This document shows positions 9,870 through 53,700 of a stretch of DNA of 64,000 bases, piece after piece (position 1 is the stretch's first letter; each line of letters begins with the position of its first letter). Where the stretch lies: positions 63,488,001 to 63,552,000 of the forward strand of contig OZ024743.1 of the NCBI GenBank assembly GCA_964016885.1, written 5' to 3'. This stretch comes from Eledone cirrhosa (taxonomy: Eukaryota). Both the position numbers and the translations under genes were made by a program. The notes beneath the pieces are model-generated. The model was not told the origin of the DNA. It did no database searches and was given only the letters and a program-made list of their open reading frames with translations.

Positions 9870-10100
9870 TACTCACCTCCCCCACCAAAGCCCCCAGCCC
9901 ACACTGTAAAGTGGTTGTGTAGGTGTCATGTCAAAAAGTACACAGCCCACACTGTAAAGTGATCATGTAGGTGTCATGACAAAAAGCACCCAGTACACCA
10001 AACCAAAATCAGTTCTGTATGACATCTGACGTGGCTTATCTCATAACGGGACAACTCATTTAACCCATGCTAGCTTGAAAAAATGGACGTTAAACGGTAC
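9870..10100 (+). mobile_element. RTE 3' end remnant with two 48-bp subunits
   Basis: cagcccacactgtaaagtg..gtaggtgtcatg twice, then taacccatgctagc..ggacgttaaa. Confidence 0.75.
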
Positions 10101-12099: not shown

Positions 12100-12580
12100 C
12101 ACCTCCATAACCCGACACTTGCTCTCCCACAGTGGGATGACTCTCCCCCCAGGCAAGCAACATGTAACCTACTACCCCCTCCTTACCCATTCCCATCACT
12201 ACTTTCCTCAGCCTGGCCAAGAACACAATGAGTGCTCTTCTGTTATAAGGTGATAGTGTTGGTGCCACAATAAAACACACAGATCACTCTGTGAAGTGAT
12301 AGTGCCGGTGCCATGATAAAACACACTCAGATCACTCTGTAAGTTGGTAGTGCTGGTGTCATGACAAAAATAAATCACCCAGTCCACCTTGTGCAATGGA
12401 AGTGCTGGTCCATGATAAAATGATCCCAGTATGTGCTGTAAAGTGGCTGGTGTTAGGAAAGACATCCAGCCATAGAAACCAAGACAAAAACGGAATGCAT
12501 AAGCAAGATATAGCCTCTTGACCAGTCTAGTCTCAAATCATGACAACCTGTCTAACCCATACATGCATGGAAACATCATT
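12100..12580 (+). mobile_element. Old RTE 3'UTR remnant with degenerate ~48-bp subunits
   Basis: repeated ctgtaag..gtagtgctggtg..atgataaaa units ending in ggtgttaggaaagacatccagc. Confidence 0.6.
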
Positions 12581-12965: not shown

Positions 12966-13214
12966 GTAGAACACTGGAAGGTAATATCCGTAGTGGTAGA
13001 GCACTCAGTCCATGGTGCGAGTTAGGTAGAAGTGGTTACACAACAGTTAGTTCACCATACCGAGAACAATTGTTTCACCTTAGCGGATCCTCGACTCATA
13101 ATGGACATGGTTATATATATATGTTCCATATAACCATGTCCATTACGAGCTGAGGATCCGCTAAGGTAAAACAATTGTTCTCGGTATAGTGAACTAACTG
13201 TTGTGTAACCACTT
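12961..13214. mobile_element. Penelope-like pLTR remnant with 87-bp fold-back, each arm carrying a hammerhead copy
   Basis: arms 13030-13116/13128-13214; consensus cgag-CTGAGGA-tcc-gctaa-ggt-GAAA-caattg-TT-ctcg; (TA)n on both sides. Confidence 0.7.
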
Positions 13215-13236
13215 ATATATATATATATATATATAT

Positions 13237-15362
13237 GAGACAGAGAGTGACCTGGTGGTTGAACAGCACAGTAGATAAGGCTATTAGAGACAAAAGACTA
13301 GCATGGAAGGCTTGGAAAAAGGGTGGGAGTAGGGAAGAATATACAGCCACTAAGAGAGAAGCTAGACGTCAGGTGTACATAGCACGCAGGGAGGCAGAGA
13401 GTAGGAGGTTTGCCAATGTTCTTCGACGGGAAGATCAGAGGCGTGCGGTGTTCCACATTGCAAGGCAGTGTGTCAATGCAAATCAGGATGTTGTTGGAGA
13501 TAAATGTATCCAGGATGATGCCGGTGTACTTAGTGTCACGAATGACCAGAAAAAGGAGGCCTGGAAATGTCATTATGAGAGACTGATGAATGTGGAGAAC
13601 GAATGGGAGAGAGAGAAATTACCCTTGGTAGATCCGACAGAGGGACCAGCTATTGAGATTGACGAATATAGGGCCCAAGAGGCGATTAGGGAAATGAAAA
13701 ATGGTAAGGCGGCCGGACCATCGGGAATAGTTGCTGAGATGCTGAAGGCATCAGGGGACGTAGGCACTAAACTGGTTGCACGCATCATCAATCAGGCTAT
13801 ATATGGTGGTGTCATACCCAAAGACTGGTGCAACAGTATTCTCATAAATTGCTACAAAGGTAAAGGGGATGCTTTGGAGAGGAGCAATTATAGGGGTATA
13901 AAACTGATAGATCAGGTTATGAAAGTGGCAGAAAGGATATTAGCACAACTAATTAGAGAAAGGGTCAAACTAGATGAGATGCAGTTTGGTTTTGTGCCTG
14001 GGAAGAGTACAACAGATGCCCTCTTCTTGGTGAGACAAATGCAAGAGAGGTTCTTAGAGAAGAATAAGCCACTATACTTAGCCTTTGTTGACCTAGAGAA
14101 GGCCTTTGATAGGGTACCCCGATCTGTCATCTGGTGGTCCCTAAGTAAACTAGGTGTTGAGGAATGGCTTGTGAGGACAGTGCAAACTTTGTACAGAGGT
14201 GCTGTCAGTAAAGTCAGGGTAGGAATGGAGTTTAGTGAGGAATTCCAGATACAAGTAGGAGTACATCAGGGTTCGGCCCTCAGCCCGCTCTTGTTCATTA
14301 TAGTCCTCCAAGCCATAACAGAGGAGTTTAAAACTGGCTGTCCATGGGAACTTCTCTATGCTGACGATCTGGCTCTTATAGCAGAATCAGTAGAGGAGCT
14401 AGAGAATAAATTCCGGCTATGGAAACAGCAGTTGGAAGCAAGAGGACTGAGAGTAAATCTAGCTAAGACAAAAGTGTTGATGAGTAGAAAAGAGGACAAA
14501 ACCCTGATTCCGTCAGGGAAATGGCCATGTTCGATATGCAGAAAAGGAACTGGCATAAATTCTATAAAATGCACACAATGCAGGTCCTGGGTACACAAGA
14601 GATGTAGCGGGATAGCAGGCAAACTAACAGGTAGGGAGAAATATGTATGCAGTAGATATACAGGGAAATCAGACAGTAGAAGTCGCACTGATAGACACAT
14701 TTTTCAAATGTGAGAGGGCGCTATAGAAGTGGTGGATAGCTTCCGGTACCTAGGAGATCAGATTAGCATGGGAGGAGGGTGTTCCGAGGCCATAGTATCT
14801 AGAATAAGGACGGGTTGGAAGAAGTTTAGGGAGCTGCTTCCTCTGTTGATGAAGAAGGGTTTCTCCCTGCGTACGAAAGGCCGGTTATATGATGCCTGTG
14901 TGAGGAGCGCGATGCTGCATGGTAGTGAGACATGGGCAGCAACCGCAGAGGATATGCGACGGCTGGAGAGAAATGAGGCAAGCATGCTCCATTGGATGTG
15001 CAGTGTAAATGTGCGTGAACGACCCAGCATAAATGTGTTGAGAGAGAAACTGTGTCTGAGAGGGATAGAATGTAGTGTACGGGAGAGGAGACTGAGGTGT
15101 TATGGACATGTGATGCGCATGGAGGATGACCGATGGGTGAAGAAGTGCCAGGAAATGCCAGTTGAAGGAAGACGTGGTAGAGGTATACCACGAAAAACAT
15201 GGGCGGAGGTGGTGAGAACAGACCTCAGATCATTGAAGCTCACGGTGGAGATGACGAGGGACCGTGACGAGTGGAGAGATGCTGTGCTGAATAAGACCCG
15301 TCCCACCCTTGCAAGCAGGGAAAAGCGGACGTTTAAATGATGATGATGATGATGCTGATGAT
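13237..15362 (+). mobile_element. RTE LINE family B, 5'-truncated (RT plus PHD-like finger; one frameshift near 14700)
   Basis: ORFs 13235..14713 and 14729..15340 with QFGF, FVDLEKAFD, GVHQGSALSP, LYADD, FRYLG; essentially no 3'UTR; (GAT)n tail. Confidence 0.95.
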
Positions 15363-20306: not shown

Positions 20307-21440
20307 TACATTTTACTATATGTATATTCAATTTGACAAGAAGAAAAGGTGGAAGGAAAACATTACTTTTTACAAATGTTATAAGTATCCACACTTTGTT
20401 CATAAGTTCCTTTATTAATTTGATACCAAACCACCTGAAACTACCCCTGATTCTATAATAAAAAAAAATATATATATATAAACTGTTTAAAAGAGTTCAT
20501 ATTTATATTTAAACCTCCCATTATAATTTTATGTTAGAACCTTTTGTTCATAATGAGAAGGTTAGTTACATTACTAAACCCTCCCAAATTTTCAATTATT
20601 TTAAAAATTAATCAAAACACTTAGGCAGTCTGTTATATTCAAAATATAGTAATGAAAGGTTTAAAAATATTTAAATAATCTGAGCTTCCCTTCATCTATG
20701 CCAACCCATTTCGGCCAAATGCCCCCTTTTACCCCTCAAAATCACGAAACGCCCCCCCCCCCCTCCTATTTTTCCATTTTTCAATATACTACTGATTTTG
20801 ATATCAGTAGATTACTGGGCCAAATCAAGTAATGTTAGAATCTTTAAAAATATCTTTAAAAAATACTCGTACAAATTAAATACAAACAAGTTTCAGTCCA
20901 AAACAAAAGCAAGCTATTTCAAATTATATATTTTTGAAAAATAGATCTGAATGTTCTCAAAGATTTGATCTCAGTCGAAAAAGTTTTTTTTTTTAATTCT
21001 CTATTTCACTGTTAGCTGTTGTAATATTTTGAGTGGACAGACAATTCTACAATTCAAACTGTAAAGTCAAAATACAAAAGATGCAAAATATGAAGAATTT
21101 CTTACCTTTCTCTTGAATCACAAACTCAAGGGAAAAATAGTACCTTGCAAAATAAAGTGCCTTGATCACAAACTTAGTTGCAACGAATGAATTGAGATGC
21201 TTAGTGACAGTGAGCAAACAATATCTGTATCCATTATATATATATATATATACATAGGTAGATACACACACACACATATATGCGCATGCGCACACACACA
21301 CAAACAAACTTGTGTGTGTCTGTGTGTGCCTTGTTTTTGGTACAGAAAGAATTTTGTCTCCAGTTTTTATTGCCGGGTCAAAGGCTACTGCTCTTTTCAA
21401 CAACATCAAGTAACAACGCCATATATATATATATATATAT

Positions 21441-22007
21441 GAATGTATATATATATAGTGTATTTTGCAATACACTGTATGCTTAATTAAAATCATTTCG
21501 AAGACCTTACGCTATTGTTTTAGAGTAGTGAGAGTCTCACTTACTTTAATTTTCAGCAAACAGGGGAGATAAAGCTGACAGAGCTCTGTTTCGCACTTTT
21601 TGGTGCTTATCAAAGCTAAGTACTCCGCCTGTTTGCTGAAAATCATGAATGTTTGATTCTTATAGAATTCTATTAATAATCAGGAACTGATTATACAGAG
21701 CGGTTGCCGGTCAAGCAGAAATTGAAAATTAGAATTGGTGCTCTGAAATAGCGATATATATATATATGAATGTATATATAGTGTATTTTGCAGGCGGAGT
21801 ACTTAGCTTTGATAAGCACCAAAAAGTGCGATCACAGAGCTCTGTCAGCTTTATCTCCCCTGTTTGCTGAAAATTAAAGTAAGTGAGACTGTCACTACTC
21901 TAAAACAATAGCGTAAGGTCTTCGAAATGTTTTTAATTAAGCATACAGTGTATTGCAAAATACACTATATATACATTCATATATATATCGCTATTTCAGA
22001 GTACCAA

Positions 22008-22013
<6 letters not shown>
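21441..22013. mobile_element. Hammerhead-bearing ~321-327-bp retrozyme/Penelope-like unit: about 1.1 tandem monomers (minus sense) plus inverted partial copy
   Basis: direct recurrence at 21441/21768; 21791-22013 inverted; (TA)n both sides; homologue at 33128. Confidence 0.85.
21549..21643 (-). ncRNA. Type-I hammerhead ribozyme, U3-A8 core variant
   Basis: agct-TTGATAA-gcac-caaaaa-gtgc-GAAA-cagagctctg-TC-agct (21573-21617) enclosed by a 16-bp distal stem I. Confidence 0.8.
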
Positions 22014-22091
<78 letters not shown>

Positions 22092-23499: not shown

Positions 23500-23855
23500 T
23501 GCCATGATAAAATGCTCTAAGTCCATTCAATATGTGGTAATGCTGGTGCCAAGATAAAATTCATCTAGTGCACTTTGTAAAGTGGCAGCACTTGTGCCAT
23601 AACAAAATCCACCCAGTACACTCTCTAAAGTGGTAATACTGGTTTCACGACAAAGGCACTCAATACATTCTGTAAAGGGATAGTGCTTGGACAAGGAAAT
23701 GAACCAAGTACACTCTGTAAAGTGGTAGTGCTGATGCCATGGTAAAATACATCCAGTACTCTGTAAAGTGGTAGTATTGGAGTCACAATAAAATGCAGCT
23801 GGTATAATTTATAAAGTTGTAGTGCTGATGCCATGGTAAAATACACCCAGTACAT
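23500..23855 (+). repeat. Degenerate ~46-48-bp tandem array of RTE 3'UTR origin
   Basis: recurring cagtacactctgtaaagtggtagtgctg. Confidence 0.65.
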
Positions 23856-25797: not shown

Positions 25798-28700
25798 CAT
25801 CATCATCATCATCATCAACGTTTAACGTCCGTGTTCCACGCTTGCATGGGTTTGGACGGTAGTAGTCCCACTTGAGGCAAGAGTGATTGTCTTGCTCGCA
25901 TAGGACTGTCTGGCAGGTTTTCTACAGTTGGATGCCCTTCCTAACACCAACCACATTTACAGTGTGGGTCTGGGAGGTTTTTACCGTGTTGCCTACACGG
26001 CCACATTACAGCGTGGACTGTGTGTTTTTTTGTCGTGACACCTACACGATCTCATTTGTTTCGGCCTGGATGGCGCGGCACCAACATAACTTTACATAGA
26101 ACGGGGTGGTGTGGATGGGGTGGGGGTGGTGGGGGTGGGACGGGGTGTATTTTGTTAGAGATGCCTACTGGCTGTAGTAGGTTTTACTATGTATTTAGGT
26201 AAGGCGGGTCTTCTCTGTTACTGAGTACCGCCAAAGGTCTCGGTCCAGTGACATTGTCTTGGAGAGGTGTAAGTGTGTGAGGTCGGAGTTTATCAGCTCG
26301 TCCCAGGTTTTTCTAGGTCTGCCTATTCCGTGGCTACCGTCTATCTTTATTGCCCTGCACTTTGTTATACAGCTATCGACTTTCATGCGCATCACGTGTC
26401 CATACCAGCGTAGCCTTCTCTCGAGTAAACAACATCTGATCCCTCTTATTTCTAATTTTTTCCTTAGTTCGTTTATGCTTTGCCGTTCACGTATATTACT
26501 GTTACACATCCAGCGGAGCATGCAAGCTTCGTTCCTCTCTAGTCTGCGTATATCCTCTGCACACAATGCCCAGGTCTCACTGCCATGCAACATTGCTGTT
26601 CGTATGCAGGCATCGTACAACCTGCCTTTCATTTTTAGGGAGAACCCTTTAGCAGCTAATAGTGGTATAAGCTCTCTGAACTTTTTCCAACCAGTTCTGA
26701 CACTAGCTACTGTACTTTCAGAGCACCCTCCCCCACTGCTGATTTTATCGCCCAGGTAATGGAAGCTGTCCACTATTTCTATAGAACCCTCTGCGCAATT
26801 GAAAGAGCTAGTATTTTGTGGGCACTTGCTGCTACTTATTGCACCAGAGCACCGGCCACATGTAAAATCTATGTTCTTAGTTAGCTTACCTGTGATTCCA
26901 CTATATCTTTTATGCACCCATACTTTGCATTTAGGACATAAAATGGAGTTTCTACCTACGCCTTTCCTACACACTGAGCATGACCATTTCCCAGAAGGGA
27001 CCGCCACCTTATTTTCTTTCCTACAAACTAGAACTTTAGTCTTAGCCAGGTTAATTTTAAGTCCTTTTGATTCTAGGCCGTGCTTCCATGTTTGGAATTT
27101 CTTCTCTAGCTCGGCCATTGATTCAGCTATGAGTGTCAGATCGTCTGCATATAGGAGTTCCCATGGGCAGCCGGTCTTGAACTCCTCTGTTATAGCCTGA
27201 AGGGCAATAATAAATAGTAGGGGGCTGAGAACAGAGCCTTGATGGACGCCAACTTTTACGCTAAACTCTTCACTATATTCGTTGTTAATTCTAACCTTGC
27301 TGACTGTTTCTTTATACATGGCTTGTATAGCTCTCACAAGCCATTCGTCAACACCTAGTTTTCTAAGAGCCCACCAGATAATGGAGCGGGGGACTCTGTC
27401 GAAGGCTTTCTCCAAGTCGACAAAAGCTAAGTAAAGGGGTTTACCTTTAGCTAGGTACTTCTCCTGTAGTTGTCGTACAATGAAAAGAGCGTCTGTGGTA
27501 CTTTTGCCTGACACAAACCCGAACTGCATTTCATCTAGGTCAATTCTCTCTCTGATTAGTTGCGCTATTACTTTTTCCGTGACCTTCATGACCTGGTCGA
27601 TTAATTTAATGCCTCTATAGTTACTCCTATCTAGGGCGTCTCCTTTACCCTTATAACAGTTAACTATGATGCTCCTATGCTAGTCCTTCGGAACAACCCC
27701 ATTCTGTACAACTTGGTTAACTATGCGGGTGACCATGGTGTGTCCCACCGTGCCAGATGCCTTCAGCATCTCAGCAACTATTTCCGAAGGCCCAGCCGCC
27801 TTACCCATCTTCATATCCTTGATTGCCTTACTTATTATACTCCCCTCGACTAACACTGCTGGTCCCTCTATTGGGTCGATATGGGGGAGACTGTCTTTCT
27901 CCCATTTATTCTCCTCATTTAGTAGCCTTTCATAGTGACACTTCCAAGCTACCTTCTTATCAGCGTCGGTGATGGCAAGTACGCCGTCATCATTAAGTAC
28001 ACACTTCTCCCCGACAATATCACGGTTTTCCTTGACGCATTGCCTAGCAATCCTGAACACCTCACGTTTTTGGTCCTCGCGTTGTAGAACATGCTTGAAC
28101 TTTCTTTCCTCTGCTTCCCTTCTTGCTAAGTACACTTGTCTCCTAGCTTCCCTCCTGGCCACTTGATAGTCTTCTCTACTTCCCCCATCCCGCCATACTT
28201 TCCAAGCCTGCTTTTTGGCCTTAATTGACCCCTCCACCTTACTGTTCCACCACCATGTTACTCTCCTCCTGCCTACAGGCCTGCTCCAGCCACAGACTTC
28301 GTCTGTCGCCATCAGCAGGTTTGCTTTCAGAAATTCCCACTGTCCCTCTATATTGTCCGACTCTAAATGCTCTTCCTTACTGTCGAAAGCATCAAGTAAT
28401 ATGCTTTTAAATTTATTTCTGGCTGTGGGGTCCTTTAGCTTCCATATTTTTCTCCTGAGGATAGTCCTCTTCTGCTGTCGAGTACGTCTCGTCCTGACTA
28501 TGAGGTCGCTAATTATCAGTCTATGTTGGGAGGTGCATTCTTCATGGGGGAGGGATTTAGTGTTTACAACAGACACTCTGTCACGTCTTCTGGTAAGGAT
28601 ATAATCTACCTGGATTGTGTGTTCCCCGGATCTATAGGTGATCAGGTGATTGTCACGTTTTTTGAAGTTAGTGTTACAGATAGTTAGGTTATTTGCGTCA

Positions 28701-28885
28701 CAGAATTCCAGGATTCTGGAGCCTTCCTCATTTCTAGTACCAAACCCATAGCCTCCATGGATTTCGTCGTAGCCGTCACAATGTTGTCCAACGTGACCAT
28801 TTAGGTCGCCTGCAATAATTATATAGTCACTGTCGGTTATTTGGGAGGTAGTGAGCATCAGTGTCTCATAGAATCTGTCTTTTGT
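25798..28885 (-). mobile_element. RTE LINE family A, long 5'-truncated copy
   Basis: ORFs 27680..28957 and 26195..27589 nearly identical to the 44615 protein; in-frame TAG at 27680; full 3'UTR and tail. Confidence 0.97.
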
Positions 28886-28894
28886 ACTTTTCAA

Positions 28895-28936
<42 letters not shown>

Positions 28937-29689
28937 GTCCCTATCATTCCACTGCAAAGTGGTCGTGGAGGTGCCACGTAAAAAAAAAAAGCACCTGTAA
29001 ATGAGGTTGGTGTTAGGAAGGGCCTCCAGCTGTAGAAATCAAGCCAGAATCAGTTCCCGTATGAGCAAGACAAGGTCAGCCGACCGGACACTGCCCACAA
29101 CAGGACAACCCATCTAACCTATGCTAGCATGGAAGAACGGACGTAAAATGGTGATGATGATGATAATGATATACACACATATATAATATATATATATATA
29201 TACACATGTATACACATTAATGAAACCCTCTCTCTCTCTCTCCATATATATATATATGTATATGTGTGTATATATATATATACACACACATAATTACATA
29301 TATATATATGTAATTATGTATGTGTATATATATAGTATGTATTAAATATATATATATATATATATATGGAGAGAGAGAAGGAGAGAGAGAGAGGTGAGGG
29401 TTTCATTAATCCTTCAGTATGATATACCAGACAACCATAGGACTATGGTGGTGGTGGTGGTAGGGAAGTGAGGCTATGAGTAACCTTTACTTTGCCCCTG
29501 GCCTAATTCCATTTGGCAAGGAAGCAATCAACTGAAGATTAGTGAGTTGATCAGCATTCCACCTGTAATTAATCTGTCTCCATTGGGTGGGTGGCGTTCA
29601 TGTTGTCTCAAGATTTAGGAATAAAAATGTATGAAGCCTCTTCTACAGACACTATGAGGTAGTTTTCTATTTTTGGACAACTACACTGT

Positions 29690-32457: not shown

Positions 32458-32933
32458 TAGGTATTTATATATATCATCATCATCATCACCATTTAATGTC
32501 ATGGGTTAGACAAGTTGTCCTGTTGTGAGAAATGCCAGGTCAGGTGACCATGTCTTGCTCATACAGACCTGATTTTGGCTTGGTTTCTACAACTGGATGT
32601 TCTTCCTAATGCCACCCTCATTTACAGTGAGTACTGGGTGTTTTTTGTTGTGACACCTGCATGACCACTTTACAGTGTGAGGTGGACGCTTTTTGTTGTG
32701 TCACCATCACAACCACTTTACAGTGAGGGCTGGGGGCTTCACTGGATGTATACTCCAGCCTGTCCTCATGGGAGATTGTATGGGAGTGGGTGGGGTGTGA
32801 TGGTGCATACTATATGTATGCTTTAGCTTCAGTCAGTGCAGTAGCATAATGCCAGAGATCTCGGTCCTGTGTTATTACCTTACATATATACATAAATATA
32901 TATATATATTTAATATAGAAATAGCATATACAG

Positions 32934-32975
32934 GACTAGACATGTTTCATTTGAAGGAAATCATCAATTCTAGTC
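32934..32975 (-). ncRNA. Degenerate minimal hammerhead
   Basis: gactagaa-TTGATGA-tttccttcaaat-GAAA-catg-TC-tagtc; palindromic stem III; (TA)n downstream. Confidence 0.4.
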
Positions 32976-33127
32976 CCGTTGAAGCCAGTTCTATACTAAA
33001 TATTATATATACTCTACTATGTATTGAGTACCTTACTTACCGTGGTTACCCCCGATTGAACTTTGGATACATACACACACATATATATATATATATAATA
33101 TATATATATATATAATATATATATATA

Positions 33128-33597
33128 TTAGAATTGGTGCTCTGAAATAGCGATATATATATGAATGTATATATAGTGTATTTTGCAATACACTGTATGC
33201 TTAATTAAAAGAATTTCGAAGACCTTACGCTATTGTTTTAGAGTAGTGACAGTCTCACTTGCTTTAAATTTTCAGCAAACAGGGGGAGATAAAGCTGACA
33301 GAGCTCTGTTTCGTACTATTTGGTACTTATCAAAGCTAAGTATTCCACCTGTTTGCTGAAAATCATGAATGTTTGATTCTTATAGAATTTTAGTAATAAT
33401 CAGGAACTGGTTATACAGAGCGGTTGCCGGTCAAGCAGAAATTGAAAATTAGAATTGGTGCTCTGAAATAGCGATATATATATAAATTTAAAGTAAGTGA
33501 GACTGTCACTACTCTAAAACAATAGCGTAAGGTCTTCAAAATGCTTTTAATTAAGCATACAGTTTATTGCAAAATACACTATATATACATTCATATA
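33128..33597. mobile_element. Second copy of the hammerhead-bearing 321-bp unit (tandem overlap plus inverted partial copy)
   Basis: ttagaattggtgctctgaaatagcg at 33128 and 33449; 33488-33597 inverted; (TA)n flanks. Confidence 0.85.
33293..33337 (-). ncRNA. Type-I hammerhead ribozyme, U3-A8 core variant
   Basis: agct-TTGATAA-gtac-caaata-gtac-GAAA-cagagctctg-TC-agct. Confidence 0.8.
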
Positions 33598-33608
33598 TAT
33601 ATATTTAT

Positions 33609-39424: not shown

Positions 39425-40140
39425 TTGTGATGCTAAACTCTGCAGATGCAGACTGCGCATGAACATGAGATATTTTTCTCCTCAAACTTCGATCGCCAGC
39501 AGCAGAGTTCAAAGAGCAAAGATCAAGTCCAGTCCATAAGTTGACATCATCAAGCCATTGTTTTGGCTGCCGGCCTCTGCTTCTCTTACCAGCCAACCTT
39601 CCTTCCAGGCATAACCTACTCACACTACCGTATAGTTTGAGTACTCTTGACTGGATAATTGATGTAATTGGTCTAAATATGGTAATGTTGAGCAGCTCAC
39701 TGATACAGATACGGTCGCTGAGCTGCTTGCCAGTCATAAGTCTAATGATGTGGTTCTGGAATGTAGAGAGCTTCTGAAGTGACTTTGTCATCCAATTAAT
39801 ACAGTCAAGACCATATAACACAACTGGTAGGATGTAAGTATCAAAGATCTTAGTCTTCAAATGATAGGAAACTCGTTTTGATGTTAGTACTTCCTTGTTC
39901 TTGTTCAAAGCTGCCCAACCTAGAGCAATTCGATATTGCGGAGCCACCATTCCATTGTTGTTTGATGATAGTTTGTGACCAAGATATACAAACTCTGTAA
40001 ATTGAGCAATTTGATTGTGAGTTGGAAATTGGCATTGTCTTTATCAGTTGTCATACACTTTGTTTTGGAGATGTTGATGTGTAAGCCAGCCTCCAGCAAA
40101 TGTTTGGTCAGTACATTCAGAAATTCTTGGAGGTTGGTGG
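39425..40140 (-). mobile_element. RTE-like LINE family E, RT thumb and C-terminus
   Basis: AGLHINISKTK, FVYLG, RIALGWAAL, YILPVVLYG, EGRLAGKRSRGRQ. Confidence 0.85.
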
Positions 40141-42960
40141 TGCTTGTTTCCTGTGGTCGTTTACTGCTTGCTGTTCCAGCACATCTGCTACATTCTTAGT
40201 TAAACTTCCGGAGATCCCACTACATCTCTTGTGTACCCATTGTTTGCATTTGGGGCAGAGGATGGAGTTCCTACCTACACCTTTCCTACATATTGAGCAA
40301 GGCCATTTCCCTGAGGGGATCTGGGTTCTGTTTTCTCGTCTACTTACAAGAACCTTAGTCTTTGTCAGGTTGACTTTGAGATCCTTTTTTTCTAGTCCCT
40401 GCTTCCATGTTTGGAATTTCTTCTCTAGTTCCACCATGGATTCAGCTATAAGTGTGAGATCATCCGCATATAGGAGTTCCCATGGGCATCCGGTCTTAAA
40501 CTCCTCTGTTATTGCCTGCAAAACTATAATGAACAGGAAAGGGCTAAGAACAAAGCCCTGGTGGACACAGACCTGTATGCTAAATTCCTCGCTATAGTCA
40601 TTACTAACTCTAACTTTGCTGACTGCTCTTCTATACATGGCTTGTACACCTTTCACAAGCCATTCATCTACTCCTAATTTTCTAAGAGTCCACCAGATTA
40701 TAGCACGGTGGACTCTGTCAAAGGCTTTTTCCAGATCAACGAATGCCAGGTAGAGCGGCTTACTTTTAGCTAGGTACTTTTCCTGTAACTGCCTCACAAG
40801 GAAGAGGGCATCAGTGGTGCCTTTTCCTGGTACAAACCCAAATTGCATCTCATCTAGTTTCACCTGGTCCCTAATCAACTGCTATAACTCTTTCCGTTAC
40901 TTTCATGACCTGGTCCATCAGCTTTATACCTCTATAGTTTCCTCTATCTAGTGCATCACCTTTACCTTTGTAGCAGTTGACAATGATGCTGCTGCACCAA
41001 TCCTTTAGTATGATACCTTCTAGTATTACCTGGTTAACAATTTTTGTGGTTATGGTGTGACCTACCGACCCAAATGCCTTCAGTATCTCGGCAGCTATAC
41101 CCAATGGGCCGGTTGCCTTCCCTGTCTTCATATCTTTGATTGCCTTACTTACTATGCTGCTGCTGACTTGTACTGCTGGCCCCTCTATAGGGTCCGCTTG
41201 GGGTAGGGTCTCTTTTTCCCATGTATTCTCCTCGTTTAGTAATCTTTCATAATGGCTCTTCCATGCAGCTTTCTTCTCGGCAAGCTCACCATTATCATTC
41301 TGGATACACTTCTCTCCAATGACATCACAATTCTCTCAGACACGCTGCCTCACAATCTTGAACACCTCCTGTTTCTGGTCCTCACATTGCAAAACATGCT
41401 TGAATTTTCTATCCTCTGCTCCCTCCTAGCTAAGTATACTTGTCGCCTAGCTTCCCTCCTGGTCTCTATGTAATGTTTCCTGCTACCCCCGTTCTTCCAT
41501 TCTTTCCATGCCTATCTCTTGGCCTTAACTGCCTCATCTACTTTATTGTTCCATCACCAAGTCACTCTCCTCCTCCCTGTGGACTTGCTCCAACCACAGA
41601 TCTTGTCCGTCGCCTTTAGTAAGTTATTCTTTAGGAACTCCCAGTGCTCTTCTACATTGAATGTCTCTATCTGTTTTTCTTTACTGTCGTAGGCGTCGAG
41701 TAGAATGTCTTTAAACCTGTTACTGACTGAGGGGTCGTTCAGCTTCCAGATCTTTCTTCTCCAGGTTGCCTTCTGTTTCCAAGTTCATCTAGTTTTGACA
41801 ATGAGGTCGCTGACAACTAAGTTATGTTGAGAAGTACATTCCTCACCAGAGAAGGTTTTTGTGTTTACAACCGTCCACCTATCACGCCCTCTGATGAGGA
41901 TAAAATCTATCTGACTAGAATGCTCCCCTGATCTATAGGTGATCAGATGGTTGTCGGGTTTTTTGAAGTTTGTGTTACATATCGACATGTCATTGGCGTC
42001 GCAGAATTCCAGAAGCCTGAAGCCTTCTTCATTTCTTGTGCCAAACAATGGACTCTATAGAAGCCGTCACAGTGTTTACCAATGTGTCTGTTAAAATCTC
42101 CTGCAATGATTAGGAAGTCATTGTCGTTTGTTAGGACCAGTAGTGTGCATTAGGGACTCATAAAACCTATCCTTCAGTTCGTCTGGCAACCCCAATTGGG
42201 GTACGTAAGCTGATACTATTGTGGCAATTGTTTTATTCAGGACTAGTCTGAGTTTGATGATTCTTGCATTCACCCTGTTCACTGAGATTACCTTATCTAC
42301 CCACTTGTCAGCTAGTAGAATACCTACACCACTCATCCCATTGTCATTTCCCACCCAGAACAATTTATAGCATTGACTTTTGCCTACAAGGACTCTAGTA
42401 GACTCTCCTCTCCATCTAGTCTCTTGCACACAGCATACATCAATTTCCTTTCGCTCTAGCATCTCTACAATTTCTCCTGCTCTTCCTTTCATTGTGCTTA
42501 CATTGATGGTTCCAACTCGGAGTTTTGGACATTTGCCATCACTCGTAGGATGGGGTGAATTTTTGTGGGGTGTGTGTATGCCACCTGTCTCTGGATTGAA
42601 GCTTTGCATGGGTGTTTGGTAGCTTGCGGATTCATATTCATTTATTAATTTGGGGTTGTTCCATTTATCCCCAGCTCATCCATAGATATCAGTAAAGGAA
42701 TTATTATTATTTAGTGCAGGGCTAGGACAGTAGTAGTAATAGCAGAGTTTGTTGGGGCTGGTAAGGGCTAGGAGGGCAGTAGTAGTAGTAGTAGTGGCAG
42801 TGTCTGTTGGGGCTGATAATGGGTTGAGGTTTGATTGGTCAAATAGCTTATGGTGGAAACTGGGGGTGGGTGGCAGGGAAATTGTGAGATAGGCAGCTAG
42901 CACACGTATACCATCATCATAGGAGATTTGGGAATAACAACAATAAAAATAAATCAGAAT
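40140..42960 (-). mobile_element. RTE LINE (A-related), putative 5'UTR through RT and PHD, 3'-truncated, several frameshifts
   Basis: ORFs 42118..42609 (APE), 41785..42048, 40871..41131, 40117..40878 (RT). Confidence 0.92.
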
Positions 42961-44539: not shown

Positions 44540-47500
44540 CCCCATAACCCCATCCCCCCCGCGCCCCACCGCTCCCACCCTCCAAACGCAATCCAAAACT
44601 TCAGAGTTGGTACCATGAATGTAGGCACCTTAAAGGGTCGCTCTAACGAGGTTGTAGAAATGCTTGAACGTAAGGAGGTCGATGTTTGTTGTATTCAAGA
44701 GACCAGGTGGAGGGGAGGGTCGGCTAGATTCATCGTGGGTAAAGAACGATGCTATAAGCTTTTCTGGGTGGGAAATGACAATGGGTTGGGTGGGGTAGGA
44801 ATCATGGTAGCAGAAAAGTGGGCAGATAAGATAATAGACGTAAATAGAGTGAACGACAGAATAATTAAAATAAGACTTGTCCTCAATAAAACTACGGTGA
44901 CAGTAATATCTGCGTACGCACCCCAATCCGGACTGCCCCGCGCTATAAAAGACAGATTCTACGAGACACTGATGCTCGCTACCTCCCAAATAACCGACAG
45001 TGACTATATAGTTATTGCAGGCGACCTAAATGGTCACGTTGGACAACATTGTGACGGCTATGACGGAATCCATGGAGGCTATGGGTTCGGTACTAGAAAT
45101 GAGGAAGGCTCCAGAATCCTGGAATTCTGCGACGCAAATAACTTAACTATCTGTAACACTAACTTCAAAAAACGAGACAATCACTTGATCACCTATAGAT
45201 CGGGGGAACACACAAGCCAGGTAGATTATATCCTTACCAGAAGACGTGACAGAGTGTCTGTTGTTAACACTAAATCCCACCCCCATGAAGAATTCACCTC
45301 CCAACATAGACTGATAATTAGCGACCTCATAGTCAGGACGAGACGTACTAGACAGCGGAAGAGGACTATCCTCAGGAGAAAAATATGGAAGCTAAAGGAC
45401 CCCATAGCCAGAAATAAATTTCAAAGCATATTACTTGACGCTTTCGACAGTAAGGAAGAGCAATTAGAGTCGTATAATATAGAGGAACAGTGGGAATTCC
45501 TGAGAGCAAACCTGCTGACGGCGGCAGACGAAGTCTGTGGCTGGAGCAGGCCTGTAGGTAGGAGGAGAGTAACATGGTGGTGGAACAGTAAGGTGGAGGA
45601 GTCAATTAAGGCCAAAAAGCAGGCTTGGAAAGTATGGCGGGATGGGGGAAGTAGAGAAGACTATCAAGTGGCCAGGAGGGAAGCTAGGAGACAAGTGTAC
45701 TTCGCAAGAAGGGAAGCAGAGGAAAGAAAGTTCAAGCATGTTCTACAACGTGAGGACCAAAAACGTGAGGTGTTCAGGATTGCCAGGCAATGTGTCAAGG
45801 AAAACCGTGATATTGTCGGGGAGAAGTGTGTACTTAACGATGATGGCATACTTGCCATCACCGACGCTGATAAGAAGGTAGCTTGGAAGTGTCACTACGA
45901 AAGGCTTCTAAATGAGGAGAACAAATGGGAGAAAGACAGTCTCCCCCAGATCGATCCAATAGAGGGACCAGCAGTGTTAGTTGAAGGTAGTATAATAGGT
46001 AAGGCAATCAAAGATATGAAGACGGGTAAGGCGACTGGGCCTTCGGAAATAGTTGCTGAGATGCTGAAGGCATCTGGTTCGGTGGGACACACCATGGTCA
46101 CCCGGATAGTTAACCAAGTCGTACAGAATGGGGTTGTTCCGAAGGAATGGCGTAGCAGCATCATCGTTAACTGCTATAAGGGAAAAGGAGATGCCCTAGA
46201 TAGGAGTAACTATAGAGGCATTAAATTAATCGACCAGGTCATGAAGGTCACGGAAAAAGTAATAGCGCAACTAATCAGAGAGAGAATTGATCTAGATGAA
46301 ATGCAGTTCGGGTTTGTGTCAGGCAAAAGTACCACAGACGCTCTTTTCATTGTACGACAACTACAGGAGAAGTACCTAGCTAAAAGTAAACCCCTATACT
46401 TAGCTTTCGTCGACTTGGAGAAAGCCTTCGACAGAGTCCCCCGTTCCATTATCTGGTGGTCTCTTAGAAAACTAGGTGTTGACGAATGGCTTGTGAGAGC
46501 TATACAAGCCATGTATAAAGAAACAGTCAGTAAGGTTAGAATTAACAACGAATATAGTGAAGAGTTTAGCGTAAAAGTTGGTGTCCATCAGGGCTCTGTT
46601 CTTAGCCCCCTACTATTTATTATTGCCCTTCAGGCTATAACAGAGGAGTTCAAGACCGGCTGCCCATGGGAACTCCTATACGCAGATGATCTAACGCTCA
46701 TAGCTGAATCAATGACCGAACTAGAGAAGAAATTCCAAACGTGGAAGCACGGCCTAGAATCAAAAGGCCTTAAAATTAACCTGGCTAAGACTAAAGTTCT
46801 AGTTTGTAGGAAAGAAAATAAGGCGGCGGTCCCATCGGGGAAATGGCCATGCTCAGTGTGTAGGAAAGGCGTAGGTAGAAACTCCATTTTATGTCCCAAA
46901 TGCAAAGTATGGGTGCATAAAAGATATAGTGGGATCACAGGTAAGCTAACTAAGAACATAGATTTTACATGTGGCCGGTGCTCTGGTGCAATAAGTAGCA
47001 GCAAGTGCCCACAAAATACTAGCTCCTTCAACTGCGCAGAGGGTTCTATAGAAATAGTGGACAGCTTCCGTTATCTGGGTGACAAAATCAGCAGTGGGGG
47101 AGGGTGCTCTGAAAGTACAGTAGCTAGAGTCAGAACTGGATGGAAAAAGTTCAGAGAGCTTATACCACTATTAGCCGCTAGAGGGTTCTCCCTAAAAATG
47201 AAAGGCAGGTTATACGATGCCTGCATACGAACAGCAATGCTGCATGGCAGTGAGACCTGGGCATTGTGTGCAGAGGATATACGCAGACTAGAGAGGAACG
47301 AAGCTTGCATGCTCCGCTGGATGTGCAATAGTAATATACGTGAACGGCAAAGCATAAACGAACTAAGGAAAAAATTAGAAATAAGAGGGATCAGATGTTG
47401 TTTACTCGAGAGAAGGTACGGTCACGTGATGCGCATGAAAGACGACAGCTGTATAACAAAGTGCAGGGCAATAAAGATAGACGGTAACCACGGAGTAGGC

Positions 47501-48133
47501 AGACCCAGAAAAACATGGGACGAGCTGATAAATTCCGACCTCACACGCTTACACCTCTCCAAGACAATGTCACTGGACCAAGACCTTTGGCGGTACTCAG
47601 TAATAGAGAAGACCCGCCTTACCTAAATACAAAGTAAAAACCTACTACAGTCAGTAGGCATCTCTATCAAAACACACCCCCGTCCCACCACCTCCACCCC
47701 ACCCACACCGCCCCTTTCAATGTAAAGTTATGTTGGTCCCACAACATCCAGGCCGAAACAAATGAGATCGTGTAGGTGTCACGACAAAAAACACACAGTC
47801 CATGCTGTAAATGTGGCCGTGTAGGCAACACGGTAAAAACCTCCCAGCCCCACACTGTAAATGTGGTTGGTGTTAGGAAGGGCATCCAGCTGTAGAAAAC
47901 CCGCCAGACAGTCCACGCTGTAATGTGGCCGTGTAGGCAACACGGTAAAAACCTCCCAGCCCCACACTGTAAATGTGGTTGGTGTTAGGAAGGGCATCCA
48001 ACTGTAGAAAACCCGCCAGACAGTCCTATGCGAGCAAGACAACCACTCTTGCCTCAAGTGGGAAAACCCCCGTCCAAACCCATGCAAGCGTGGAACACGG
48101 ACGTTAAACGTTGATGATGATGATGATGATGAT
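44540..48133 (+). mobile_element. Near full-length RTE LINE family A
   Basis: single long ORF, ~490-bp 3'UTR with a 112-bp duplication, (GAT)n tail; 5' junction at a short (TA)n. Confidence 0.97.
44615..47626 (+). CDS. RTE ORF: APE endonuclease + reverse transcriptase with internal PHD-type finger (1003 aa)
   Basis: NVGTL/QETRW/GDLN/SQH APE motifs; QFGF, DLEKAFD, GVHQGSVLSP, YADD, YLG RT motifs; no stops. Confidence 0.95.
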   Translation: MNVGTLKGRSNEVVEMLERKEVDVCCIQETRWRGGSARFIVGKERCYKLFWVGNDNGLGGVGIMVAEKWADKIIDVNRVNDRIIKIRLVLNKTTVTVISAYAPQSGLPRAIKDRFYETLMLATSQITDSDYIVIAGDLNGHVGQHCDGYDGIHGGYGFGTRNEEGSRILEFCDANNLTICNTNFKKRDNHLITYRSGEHTSQVDYILTRRRDRVSVVNTKSHPHEEFTSQHRLIISDLIVRTRRTRQRKRTILRRKIWKLKDPIARNKFQSILLDAFDSKEEQLESYNIEEQWEFLRANLLTAADEVCGWSRPVGRRRVTWWWNSKVEESIKAKKQAWKVWRDGGSREDYQVARREARRQVYFARREAEERKFKHVLQREDQKREVFRIARQCVKENRDIVGEKCVLNDDGILAITDADKKVAWKCHYERLLNEENKWEKDSLPQIDPIEGPAVLVEGSIIGKAIKDMKTGKATGPSEIVAEMLKASGSVGHTMVTRIVNQVVQNGVVPKEWRSSIIVNCYKGKGDALDRSNYRGIKLIDQVMKVTEKVIAQLIRERIDLDEMQFGFVSGKSTTDALFIVRQLQEKYLAKSKPLYLAFVDLEKAFDRVPRSIIWWSLRKLGVDEWLVRAIQAMYKETVSKVRINNEYSEEFSVKVGVHQGSVLSPLLFIIALQAITEEFKTGCPWELLYADDLTLIAESMTELEKKFQTWKHGLESKGLKINLAKTKVLVCRKENKAAVPSGKWPCSVCRKGVGRNSILCPKCKVWVHKRYSGITGKLTKNIDFTCGRCSGAISSSKCPQNTSSFNCAEGSIEIVDSFRYLGDKISSGGGCSESTVARVRTGWKKFRELIPLLAARGFSLKMKGRLYDACIRTAMLHGSETWALCAEDIRRLERNEACMLRWMCNSNIRERQSINELRKKLEIRGIRCCLLERRYGHVMRMKDDSCITKCRAIKIDGNHGVGRPRKTWDELINSDLTRLHLSKTMSLDQDLWRYSVIEKTRLT

Positions 48134-48744: not shown

Positions 48745-50555
48745 TTAACCCTTTAGCATTTAAATTGGCCATATCCGACCAGAATTCTCTCACCTCTTTC
48801 TGTTCAAACTGGCTGTAACTGGCCACTCATACTAATGTTAAGGTATTGTTCTCAAAATAAATAATATCAAAATCTCCTAGATTCAATATTATGTGAGATA
48901 ATTATGTGAAATAAAATGTTTACCATGAAAATACAATAGTATATATAGAGTAATCATCATCATCATCATCGTTTAACATCCATCTTCCACGCTAGGATGG
49001 GTCTGGACGGGAATTGTCCCGCTTGAGGCAAGATTGGTTGTCTCGCTCGTATAGGACTGTCTGGCAGGTTTTCTACGGCTGGATACCCTTCCTAACACCA
49101 ACCACGTTTACAGTGTGGACTGGGAGGTTTTTACTGTGTTACCTACACGGCCACATTACAACGTGGACTGTGTGTTTTTTTTGTCGTGACACCTACACAT
49201 CCTCATTTATTTAGGACTGGATGTTGTAGTACCAACATAGCTTTACATCGAAAGGGGTGGTGTAGATGGCGGTGGGGGTAGGGGTAGGGGTAGTGGGACA
49301 GGGGTGTATTTTGGTTAAGAGGTGCCTACTGACTGTAGTAGGTTTCACTTTGTACTTAGGTAAGGCGGGTCTTCTGTATTACTGTGTAGTGCCAAAGATC
49401 TCGGTCCAGTGACATTGTCTTGGAGAGGTGTAAGTGTGTGAGGTCAGATTTTATCAAGTTGTCCCAGGTTTTTCTGGGTCTGCCTACTCTGTAGCTACTG
49501 TCTATTTTGATCGCCCTGCACTTTTTTATACAGCTGTCATCTTTCATGCGCATCACGTGATCATACCAACGTAGTCTTCTCTCGAGTAAACAACATCTGA
49601 TCCCTCTTATTCCTAATTTCTCACTTAGTTAATTTATGCTTTGCCGTTCGCGTATATTACTATTACACATCCAACGGAGCATGCAAGCTTCGTTCCTCTC
49701 CAGTCTGCGTAGATCCTCTGCACACAAGGCCCAGGTCTCACTGCCATGTAACATTGCTGTTCGTATGCAGGCATCATACAGCTTGCCTTTTATTTTTAGA
49801 GAGAAACCTTTAGCAGCCAATAGTGGTATAAGCTCTCTGAACTTTTTCCATCCTGTTCTAACTCTAGATACAGTACTTTCAGAGCACCCTCCACCACTGC
49901 TGATTTTGCCACCCAGGTAATGGAAGGTGTCCACTATTTCTATAGAACCATCTGGGCAATGGAATGAGCTAGTATTCTGTGGGCATTTGCTGCTACTTAT
50001 TGCACCAGAACACCGACCACATATAAAATCTATATTCTTAGTTAGCTTACCTGTGATCCCACTACATCTTTTATGCACCCATACTTTGCATATGGGACAT
50101 AAAATAGAGTTTCTGCCTACTCCTTTCCTACACACTGAGCATGGCCATTTCCCAGATGGGACCAGTGCCCTATTCTCCTTCTTACATATTAGGACTTCAG
50201 TCTTAGACAAGTTAACTTTAAGGCCTTTTGATTCTAGGCCATGCTTCCATATTTGGAATTTCTTCTCTAGTTCAGCCATTGATTCGGCTATGAGCGTTAG
50301 ATCATCTGTGTATAGAAGTTCCCATGGGCAGCCGGTCTTGAACTCCTCCGTTATAGCTTGGAGGGCAATAAAAAATATGAGGGTGCTAAGGATGGAAACC
50401 TGATGAACACCAACTTTTACGCTAAACTCTTCACTATATTCGTTGTTAATTCTAACCTTGCTGACTGTTTCTTTATACATGGCTTGTATAGCTCTCACAA
50501 GCCATTCATCTACACCTTGTTTTCTAAGAGCCCACCGTAAGTGCTAAAGGGATAA
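48745..50555. mobile_element. piggyBac-type MITE (48745-48954 + 50537-50555) split by an RTE family A fragment (48955-50536, minus)
   Basis: the MITE halves rejoin to match 39361-39385; ORFs 49629..50498 and 49356..49556. Confidence 0.88.
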
Positions 50556-50776: not shown

Positions 50777-53700
50777 GACAAAAAGCACCCAGCCCACACT
50801 GTAAAGTGGTCATGTAGGTGTCACAACAAAAAGTACCCAGCCCACACTGTAAAGTGGTCATGTAGGTGTCGCAACAAAAAACACCCAGCCCACACTGTAA
50901 AGTGGTCATGTAGGTGTCACAACAAAAAGTACCCAGCCCACACTGTAAAGTGGTCGTGTAGGTGTCACAACAAAAAGCACCCAGCACACACTGTAATGTG
51001 GTCATGTAGGTGTCATGACAAAAAGCACCCAGCCCACACTGTAAAGTGGTCATGTAGGTGTCACAACAAAAAGCACCCATTCCACACTGTAAAGTGGTCA
51101 TGTAGGTGTCACAACAAAAAGCACCCAGCCCACACTGTAAAGTGATCATGTAGGTGTCAAAACAAAAAGCACCCAGCACACACTGTAATGTGGTCGTGTA
51201 GGTGTCACAACAAAAAGCACCCAGTTCACACTGTAAAGTGGTCATGTAGGTGTCACAACAAAAAAAAAGCAACCCACACTGTAAAGTGGTCATATAGGTG
51301 TCACAACAAAAAGCACCCAGCCCACACTGTAAAGTGGTCATGTAGGTGTCACAACAAAAAGCACACAACCCACACTGTAAAGTGGTCATGTAGGTGTCAC
51401 AACAAAAAGCACCCATTCCACACTGTAAAGTGGTCATGTAGGTGTCACAACAAAAAGCACCCAGCCCACACTGTAAAGTGATCATGTAGGTGTCAAAACA
51501 AAAAGCACCCAGCACACACTGTAATGTGGTCGTGTAGGTGTCACAACAAAAAGCACCCAGTTCACACTGTAAAGTGGTCATGTAGGTGTCACAACAAAAA
51601 AAAAGCAACCCACACTGTAAAGTGGTCATATAGGTGTCACAACAAAAAGCACCCAGCCCACACTGTAAAGTGGTCATGTAGGTGTCACAACAAAAAGCAC
51701 ACAACCCACACTGTAAAGTGGTCATGTAGGTGTCACAACAAAAAACACCCATTCCACACTGTAAAGTGGTCATGTAGGTGTCACAACAAAAAGCACCCAT
51801 TCCACACTGTAAAGTGGTCATGTAGGTGTCACAACAAAAAGCACCCAGCCCACACTGTAATGTGGTCGTGTAGGTGTCACAACAAAAAGCACCCAGCCAA
51901 CACTCGCTGTAAAGTGGTCATGTAGGTGTCACAACAAAAAGCACCCAGCCCACATTGTAAAGTGGTCATGTAGGTGTCACAACAAAAAGCACCCAGCACA
52001 CACTGTAATGTGGTCGTGTAGGTGTCACAACAAAAAGCACGCAGCCCACACTGTAAAGTGGTCATGTAGGTGTCACAACAAAAAGCACCCAGCCCACACT
52101 GTAAAGGGGTCATGTAGGTGTCACAACAAAAAGCACCCAGCCCACACTGTAAAGTGATCATATAGGTGTCACAACAAAAAGCACCCAGCCCACACTGTAA
52201 AGTGGTCATGTAGGTGTCACAACAAAAAGCACCCATTCCACACTGTAAAATGATCATGTAGGTGTCACAACAAAAAGCACCCAGCACACACTGTAATGTG
52301 GTCGTGTAGGTGTCACAACAAAAAGCACCCAGCCCACACTCACTGTAAAGTGGTCATGTAGGTGTCACAACAAAAAGCACCCAGCCCACATTGTAATGTG
52401 GTCATGTAGGTGTCACAACAAAAAGCACCCAGCCCACACTGTAAAGTGGTCATGTAGGTGTCACAACAAAAGGTACCCAGCACACACTGTAATGTGGTCA
52501 TGTAGGTGTCATGACAAAAAGCACCCAGCCCACACTGTAAAGTGGTCATGTAGGTGTCAAAATAAAAAGCACCCAGCACACACTGTAATGTGGTCGTGTA
52601 GGTGTCACAACAAAAAGTACCCAGCCCACACTGTAAAGTGGTCATGTAGGTGTCGCAACAAAAAACACCCAGCCCACACTGTAAAGTGGTCATGTAGGTG
52701 TCACAACAAAAAGTACCCAGCCCACACTGTAAAGTGGTCGTGTAGGTGTCACAACAAAAAGCACCCAGCACACACTGTAATGTGGTCATGTAGGTGTCAT
52801 GACAAAAAGCACCCAGCCCACACTGTAAAGTGGTCATGTAGGTGTCACAACAAAAAGCACCCAGCCCACACTCGCTGTAAAGTGGTCATGTAGGTGTCAC
52901 AACAAAAAGCACCCAGCCCACACTGTAAAGTGATCATGTAGGTGTCACAACAAAAAGCACCCAGCACACACTGTAATGTGGTCGTGTAGGTGTCACAACA
53001 AAAAGCACCCAGTTCACACTGTAAAGTGGTCATGTAGGTGTCACAACAAAAAAAAAAGCAACCCACACTGTAAAGTGGTCATATAGGTGTCACAACAAAA
53101 AGCACCCAGCCCACACTGTAAAGTGGTCATGTAGGTGTCACAACAAAAAGCACACAACCCACACTGTAAAGTGGTCATGTAGGTGTCACAACAAAAAGCA
53201 CCCAGCCCACACTGTAAAGTGGTCATGTAGGTGTCACAACAAAAAGCACCCAGCCCACATTGTAAAGTGGTCATGTAGGTGTCACAACAAAAAGCACCCA
53301 GCACACACTGTAATGTGGTCGTGTAGGTGTCACAACAAAAAGCACGCAGCCCACACTGTAAAGTGGTCATGTAGGTGTCACAACAAAAAGCACCCAGCCC
53401 ACACTGTAAAGGGGTCATGTAGGTGTCACAACAAAAAGCACCCAGCCCACACTGTAAAGTGATCATATAGGTGTCACAACAAAAAGCACCCAGCCCACAC
53501 TGTAAAGTGGTCATGTAGGTGTCACAACAAAAAGCACCCAGCACACACTGTAATGTGGTCGTGTAGGTGTCACAACAAAAAGCACCCAGCACACACTGTA
53601 ATGTGGTCATGTAGGTGTCATGACAAAAAGCACCCAGCCCACACTGTAAACTTGTCATGTAGGTGTCACAACAAAAAGCACCCATTCCACACTGTAAAGT

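What the first reader, a model, noticed from the sequence alone, without database searches (positions are those of the whole stretch)
21441..22013. Non-coding ~321-bp retroelement carrying a U3-A8 variant hammerhead ribozyme (retrozyme-like)
Seen: the minus strand reads agct-UUGAUAA-gcac-caaaaa-gugc-GAAA-cagagcucug-UC-agcu. It is enclosed by ggag/cucc and a perfect 16-bp distal stem (21549-21564/21628-21643) with an internal loop. The unit recurs after ~327 bp, is followed by an inverted copy whose GAAA is mutated (21805-21850), and is flanked by (TA)n. Known: the hammerhead core is C3UGANG8A with a C3-G8 Watson-Crick pair, so U3-A8 is a compensated variant that CTGANGA searches miss. A palindromic stem III is typical of dimer-cleaving hammerheads in Penelope-like elements and non-LTR retrozymes. 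Inference: tandem transcripts self-cleave after GUC (21577/21576) into ~321-nt monomers or circles that are copied by a Penelope-type RT.
Basis: partly seen in the sequence, partly recalled or inferred. Interest (0 to 1): 0.88.

Follow-up and report, generated by a model that had tools for sequence, protein, structure and literature searches.

The report
Penelope-type retrozyme with swapped ribozyme core
This is one copy, likely dead, of a 320-base non-coding repeat present over a thousand times in this animal genome, carrying a predicted self-cutting RNA motif and likely spread by Penelope-type jumping-gene enzymes, and its family history shows a catalytic base pair swapped for a known working alternative, a hint that cutting matters for its spread.

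Summary
The type I hammerhead is real (21617-21573, minus strand; U3-A8 core, cut predicted at 21577/21576). It lies in a ~320-bp non-coding unit with at least 1,092 exact-core copies genome-wide, some in arrays of 3-17 units. Insertions have the Penelope (PLE) build: back-to-back 5'-truncated arms in (TA)n; in 45 of 50 scorable two-armed insertions one arm ends at the unit's TA tract, the other 24-32 nt further on. The locus itself is not a tandem: one intact hammerhead plus a broken inverted copy, so it cannot release a monomer. U3-A8 is in print (Perreault 2011; Cervera 2014, in PLEs) and occurs in three autonomous PLE families here. What this family adds: a tree built without the ribozyme gives a ladder of C3-G8 sister subfamilies with a lengthening palindromic stem III, ending in one U3-A8 clade (100/97), with compensated stems; half-swapped cores are only scattered copies. 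Tandem units are predicted to fold as double hammerheads. Cleavage, expression and circles are untested; no parent PLE in 82 loci. The scan found sister retrozyme families in this genome many times before. Verdict: new member of metazoan non-LTR retrozymes.

The parts
21433..21753 (-). One full 321-bp unit of the repeat (main arm), 3' end running into (TA)n at the unit's internal TA tract (end site 1)
   Evidence: 96-100% identical to the 40 best genomic copies
21573..21617 (-). Type I hammerhead: stem I, U3-A8 core 21613-21607, stem II, GAAA, palindromic stem III 21589-21578, C17 at 21577
   Evidence: sequence, scanner, Rfam HH9 below gathering, covariation
21549..21643 (-). Extended helix enclosing the hammerhead: ggag/cucc with internal loop and 16-bp distal stem (21549-21564 with 21628-21643)
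   Evidence: 8 of its 15 counted pairs change on both sides across subfamilies
21754..21792 (-). 5'-truncated head-to-tail remnant of the preceding unit (last ~39 nt)
21791..21988 (+). Inverted, 5'-truncated second arm (unit positions 123-321); joins the first arm over 2 shared bases; its hammerhead (21805-21850) is broken at GAAA
21989..22014 (+). 26-nt PLE-type 'tail' (start of the next unit) closing the inverted arm (end site 2)
   Evidence: 40 of 78 tails in the family are 26 nt
21421..21432 (.). (TA)n flank, left
22015..22040 (.). (TA)n flank, right
33127..33604 (-). Second, independent two-armed insertion of the same family in the window (94% identical; intact U3-A8 hammerhead, N3 at 33333, stem II GUAC/GUAC; tail at the left end, inverted arm to the right)

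Best explanation
This is a two-armed insertion of a high-copy, non-coding ~320-bp repeat with an intact type I hammerhead motif, likely a non-autonomous Penelope-like element (non-LTR retrozyme) copied into (TA)n by a PLE reverse transcriptase-endonuclease. Shown: the motif, the copy number, the arrays, the two fixed 3' end sites, the (TA)n targets and the subfamily ladder. Inferred working: tandem source loci are transcribed; neighbouring units pair through the palindromic stem III and the distal stem into a double hammerhead that cuts after GUC; the 318-322-nt monomers would be ligated to circles; a PLE protein nicks both strands of a (TA)n tract and starts reverse transcription at two sites ~26 nt apart, one for each side of the break; both copies read through the cut site (so the template is a circle or an uncut multimer), stop early and are joined back to back. 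This particular copy has one working motif and an antisense arm, and is likely inert.
For: 1,092 exact-core matches, control 0; dispersed 96-100% copies; arrays of ~17, ~14 and 3 units. Of 112 insertions 68 are two-armed; 45 of the 50 with both ends scorable pair one TA end with one tail end, p 1.8e-9; 68 of 78 tail ends run into (TA)3+, background 2.8%. This is the PLE architecture described in PMC8557442 and the two internal start sites with both-strand extension shown in vitro in PMC11167929. Autonomous RT+GIY-YIG PLEs, some with intact 844-1096-aa frames, the same two-end design and hammerheads 130-200 nt before (TA)n, abound in the genome. Structure is conserved across relatives only 66-82% identical: 94.9% of cells paired, 15 of 28 pairs change on both sides, slid controls 38-49%. 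Double hammerhead is the minimum-energy fold in 1 of 3 natural dimers and within 1.7 and 8.7 kcal/mol in the others, always better than two single hammerheads. Opposite arms are closer to each other (median 4.3%) than to other loci (6.9%), n 49.
Against: No cleavage, transcript or circle was observed. No parent or partner PLE with shared sequence in 82 PLE loci. Nothing here separates circle from uncut multimer: only 2 locus-private variants are shared by all copies of an insertion against 166 single ones, and rare A>G changes equal T>C (56 vs 55), so no RNA-editing mark. The two long arrays are old (11-13% between units) with many broken cores and scattered shared variants. Two dimers of older C3-G8 subfamilies did not fold near the double hammerhead (+21, +41 kcal/mol). 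In print, 8 of 9 Xenopus retrozyme dimers did not cleave and hammerhead mutants did not impair PLE insertion in vitro.
Confidence: 0.8

Rival explanations
1. Same PLE-driven element, but no circle is involved: uncut multimeric read-through transcripts are the template, and the hammerhead acts at another step (end processing, export, turnover) or weakly.
For: Arms read through the cut site (142 of 177 longer than 175 nt) and 5' ends do not gather there; in vitro, unprocessed RNA was the main PLE substrate (PMC11167929); most arms are under two units long.
Against: Long-term compensation of the core pair and stems argues for a selected function; in the young 310-bp sister family all units of both arms differ by 0-1 base in 8 of 9 multi-unit insertions while insertions differ by 0-5, as a re-read circle would give (a homogeneous source array would too).
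Confidence: 0.35
2. The copies are only truncated 3' ends (solo pseudo-LTRs) of an autonomous PLE that I did not find.
For: Most PLE hammerheads occur as single motifs from truncated copies (PMC4209133); only 150 of 10,596 GIY-YIG candidates were scored.
Against: The tail runs directly into the same unit in head-to-tail arrays with 318-322-nt spacing; none of 112 insertions extends into other element sequence; no homology in 82 PLE loci; longest stop-free stretch 55 codons.
Confidence: 0.08
3. A DNA-level repeat (MITE with terminal inverted repeats, fold-back element or satellite) whose hairpins mimic a hammerhead.
For: The locus looks like an inverted repeat; two long arrays evolve like satellite DNA.
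Against: Inverted arms vary freely in length and 41 of 112 insertions have one arm; fixed 3' and ragged 5' ends are marks of reverse transcription; core pair and stems covary on one strand.
Confidence: 0.03

Closest known systems
Metazoan non-LTR retrozymes (Cervera and de la Pena 2020, PMC7229834, parts 2-4 of 6 read, supplement not readable; Li, Clavereau and Pollet 2026, 10.64898/2026.07.22.740005, parts 1-3 of 5 read, supplements closed)
   Same: Non-coding 150-450-bp unit, type I hammerhead, low GC, monomers to multimers, no LTR features, co-occurring with PLEs, which both papers propose as origin or mobiliser.
   Different: Stem III is a 10-nt perfect palindrome rather than 1-2 bp; core is U3-A8; most insertions are back-to-back arms with PLE tails in (TA)n, which the parts read do not describe; expression and circles are not shown here.
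Pseudo-LTR hammerheads of Penelope-like elements (PMC4209133, parts 1-2 of 4 read and 2 supplement files searched; PMC8557442, passages; PMC11167929, parts 1-2 of 4)
   Same: Minimal type I motif with palindromic stem III, 5' truncation, partial tandem plus inverted copy, a tail at one end, (TA)n targets; U3-A8 already reported for the Cercyon PLE of Schistosoma (about 1,300 hits).
   Different: No ORF; tail 24-32 nt rather than 30-40; no sequence match to any sampled autonomous family.
Non-autonomous Chlamys PLEs such as MRC1 (PMC8557442, passage)
   Same: Non-coding PLE dependants forming head-to-tail and pseudo-LTR insertions.
   Different: Those share 3' sequence with autonomous partners and the clade lacks canonical hammerheads; here a hammerhead is central and no partner matches.
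Natural U3-A8 hammerheads (Perreault et al. 2011, PMC3088659, one passage read)
   Same: Same covariation, stated there to be active in vitro.
   Different: Here the switch is traced inside one element lineage, with both states in one genome.

Membership tests
Type I hammerhead ribozyme | Conserved core with a Watson-Crick 3-8 pair, three stems, NUH site | tested here: met
   3-8 pair C-G in 17, U-A in 7, unpaired in 1 of 25 rows (rows chosen by core patterns, so core invariance itself is by construction)
Type I hammerhead ribozyme | Reaches an Rfam gathering score | tested here: not met
   HH9 26.5 bits versus 52
Type I hammerhead ribozyme | Self-cleavage | not testable with these tools
   no assay; fold predictions only
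Non-LTR retrozyme | Small non-coding unit with type I hammerhead | tested here: met
   318-322 nt cut to cut, 7 monomers; longest stop-free stretch 55 codons
Non-LTR retrozyme | [quoted passage not shown] | tested here: met
   met by the family (L062, L063, L079), not by this locus
Non-LTR retrozyme | Expressed as linear and circular monomer RNA | not testable with these tools
   no run on record as RNA was listed
Penelope-like element insertion | 5' truncation, partial tandem, adjacent inverted copy | tested here: met
Penelope-like element insertion | Tail at one end; two fixed 3' end sites; microsatellite target | tested here: met
   45 of 50 mixed ends; 68 of 78 tails into (TA)n
Autonomous PLE | RT plus GIY-YIG ORF | tested here: not met
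   no ORF in unit or in 112 insertions
Non-autonomous PLE derivative | Sequence shared with the pseudo-LTR of an autonomous partner | tested here: inconclusive
   none in 82 PLE loci, a small sample of 10,596 candidates
SINE | Pol III A and B boxes | tested here: not met
   simple recalled consensus patterns found none on either strand; weak test
MITE / DNA transposon | Fixed terminal inverted repeats | tested here: not met
   arm lengths 26-5,500 nt; 41 of 112 one-armed

The most novel reading that the evidence does not exclude
This genome preserves a step-by-step record of a ribozyme evolving under selection inside a replicating RNA circle: successive subfamilies lengthened the dimerisation palindrome, rewrote stem II and the distal stem in compensated pairs, and finally swapped the catalytic C3-G8 pair for U3-A8 with no amplified half-way form, while a dimeric PLE enzyme copied the circle from both sides of a (TA)n break. 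That would show in vivo that hammerhead catalysis is required for PLE-driven spread, against the in vitro result that it is dispensable, and that a retrozyme can persist with no sequence tie to its mobilising PLE.
Probability: 0.35. Interest if true: 0.65.

Novelty: new member of a known kind. Interest (0 to 1): 0.4.

Why it matters
What hammerheads do for Penelope elements and retrozymes is open: the only in vitro PLE system found cleavage unnecessary for insertion (PMC11167929). A lineage with over a thousand copies per subfamily, both core states, compensated stems and young autonomous PLEs in the same genome offers natural variants for a direct test, and its ends tie retrozymes to the PLE enzyme more concretely than co-occurrence. 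It also shows that CUGANGA-only searches would miss whole families. None of this is a new kind of system, and the scan has already noted sister families in this genome many times.

Tried and rejected
Rfam at gathering thresholds: nothing in the window. Partner search: GIY-YIG and PLE-protein searches, 82 loci, at least six families; only two separate insertions of this repeat beside PLEs (L032, L081), no shared pseudo-LTR. Expression: no RNA holder listed; reads and contigs laid were DNA or of unrecorded kind, so no evidence either way. RNA-editing mark: an overall A>G excess (96 vs 56) came from a few shared sites and vanished for rare variants (56 vs 55); rejected. Cut linear monomer as template: 3 of 177 5' ends within 3 nt of the cut, about 4 expected; about 25 ends were set to unit position 1 by my method; rejected. 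Idea that U3 arose to relieve mispairing of stem I with the longer stem III: active monomer fold costs +2.9 kcal/mol, +5.6 with C3-G8 in silico, but natural C3-G8 relatives range +1.7 to +7.9 (5 computed, 4 not parsed) and it makes no difference in the dimer; kept only as a weak lead. Rolling-circle signature in the two long arrays: too old to read. Literature: searches listed no paper on this family; a recalled 2017 paper on dimer-cleaving PLE hammerheads was not held; unreadable supplements of PMC7229834 and the 2026 preprint, and Repbase/Dfam (not available), could hold it.

Full report
Observation. A type I scanner gives 2 hits in the window, here and at 33333, both this family, against 0.075 per shuffled window. 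Rfam HH9 matches at E 3.1e-4, below its gathering score. One point is wrong: only 39 nt of the unit recur head to tail. The locus is (TA)n, one full 321-bp unit on the minus strand, a 39-nt remnant, an inverted arm of unit positions 123-321 with a broken hammerhead, a 26-nt tail, (TA)n. Its transcript is predicted to be one long hairpin, -353 kcal/mol.

Family. The window lies in a 3.0-Gb animal genome (G000); earlier scan notes call it cephalopod, which I did not test. The unit has 1,299 first-look candidates, the 40 scored being 96-100% identical and on many contigs. An exact pattern that leaves positions 3 and 8 free finds 1,092 matches, control 0; of the 100 listed 99 are U3-A8 and 1 is U3-G8, and stem II alternates between GCAC/GUGC, GUAC/GUAC and GCAU/AUGC. 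Arrays of about 17, 14 and 3 units exist; 7 cut-to-cut monomers measure 318-322 nt, and the three folded as circles give z -4.2 to -6.5.

Insertion anatomy. I examined 112 insertions (30 best BLAST loci, 81 from the listed pattern hits on C1 or beside them, and the second window copy; both samples favour intact copies). 68 are two arms back to back, 41 one arm, 3 more complex. 3' ends fall at the unit's TA tract or 24-32 nt further (26 nt in 40 of 78). Dropping 18 two-armed cases with an end elsewhere, 45 of 50 have one of each, against half expected, p 1.8e-9. 68 of 78 tails run into (TA)n. 5' ends are ragged and ignore the cut site; 142 of 177 arms are long enough to cross it and 70 exceed a unit plus tail. 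In 32 of 68 arm junctions 1-9 nt are shared (apparent gaps are partly artefacts of my filter). PMC8557442 (passages) describes this build for PLEs, and PMC11167929 explains the tail by two internal start sites with both strands cut and extended. The idea of scoring the two outer ends came from an earlier scan note.

Relatives and the core swap. Sister subfamilies with C3-G8 are as numerous: 954 matches to one pattern, 344 to another, and a 310-bp family with 18,158 motif matches found through a non-ribozyme motif, 66% identical to this unit yet with a full hammerhead and a distal stem of different sequence. A tree of 52 copies built without the hammerhead, rooted on a single long-branch 310-bp copy, is a ladder in which stem III goes CAGACUG, CAGAUCUG, CAGAGAUCUG, CAGAGCUCUG; all 23 U3-A8 copies form one clade (100/97) at the top, and the 3 U3-G8 copies are scattered (bootstrap not fully settled, correlation 0.987; one search agrees on 26 rows). 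With the newest stem III only 7 copies have C3, 5 of them mismatched C3-A8; with the previous one, my hand count of the 100 listed is 89 C-G, 5 U-A, 4 C-A, 2 U-G. Over 25 rows, 94.9% of cells pair and 15 of 28 pairs change on both sides, slid controls 38-49% (related rows inflate this). Dispersed copies decay neutrally, so compensation between subfamilies points to selection on the RNA that spreads (inference).

How it would cut. Alone, the motif is predicted to mispair, the active fold costing 2.9 kcal/mol, and the same mispairing appears in the circle, which would keep a circle shut (inference). In tandem units the double hammerhead is the minimum-energy fold for L062, for the doubled window unit and for the 310-bp family, +1.7 and +8.7 for two other natural dimers, and two older-subfamily dimers fit neither fold. 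This matches the dimer model in PMC4209133, whose minimal motifs cut only weakly.

Driver. The genome holds many RT+GIY-YIG PLEs, some with long intact frames and near-identical copies. Their 3' ends show a hammerhead, then (TA)n, then an optional tail; three families have U3-A8 cores. None of 82 loci shares sequence with the unit, so the mobiliser is inferred from the footprint only.

Against and open. No RNA evidence. No editing mark. Circle and uncut multimer are not told apart in this family; the young 310-bp sister shows near-identical units across both arms, which fits a circle but also a homogeneous source array. U3-A8 is known, and a PLE origin of animal retrozymes is proposed in print.

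Verdict. A real, likely inert copy of a new retrozyme family of a known kind; the traceable core swap is the part worth a bench test. Interest 0.4.

Noticed in passing
window 32870-33070 (minus): A different hammerhead-like repeat (stem I GGACUAGA/UCUAGUCC, core UUGAUGA, stem III CAUG) abuts the second insertion; a C3-G8 relative sits in L094.
   Followed up: partly
L136, L141-L156 (G000 C1): Young 310-311-bp sister retrozyme, 18,158 motif matches, in opposed arrays with near-identical units; also present in runs of organisms B and C. Noted before by the scan.
   Followed up: partly
window 21537-21545 and 21744-21753 (minus): A donor-like AAAGUAAGU just after the distal stem and an acceptor-like CUAUUUCAG in the tail; PLEs carry introns near the hammerhead. 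The donor is absent from the 310-bp sister; no RNA data.
   Followed up: no
window 21681-21725 and 21500-21515: Blocks outside the ribozyme that stay nearly unchanged between families 66% identical (around GACCGGCAACCGCUCU just 3' of the tail, and AGGUCUUC): candidate binding site for the PLE protein.
   Followed up: no
L278-L289: A very young Penelope/Poseidon-like PLE family with many ~900-aa open frames, often in opposed pairs, with the same two 3' end sites in (TA)n.
   Followed up: partly
L039, L057, L089, L094, L096: A PLE family whose hammerhead-like motif reads UUGAAAA...GCAA CCGG UA, i.e. U3-A8 with GCAA in place of GAAA in all five loci printed.
   Followed up: no
window 50778-57867 (also 9887-9993, 12250-12369, 23534-23854): 48-bp satellite, 147 copies, 91% matches, with short dispersed relatives.
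   Followed up: no
window 44540-47626, 13193-15340, 26195-29038, 40117-42675, 49629-50543: LINE copies with AP endonuclease, RT and PHD-finger; the 44540-47626 frame is open for 1,028 aa.
   Followed up: partly
L003: Both flanks of this two-armed insertion look like inverted copies of each other, on a small contig: fold-back event or assembly artefact.
   Followed up: no
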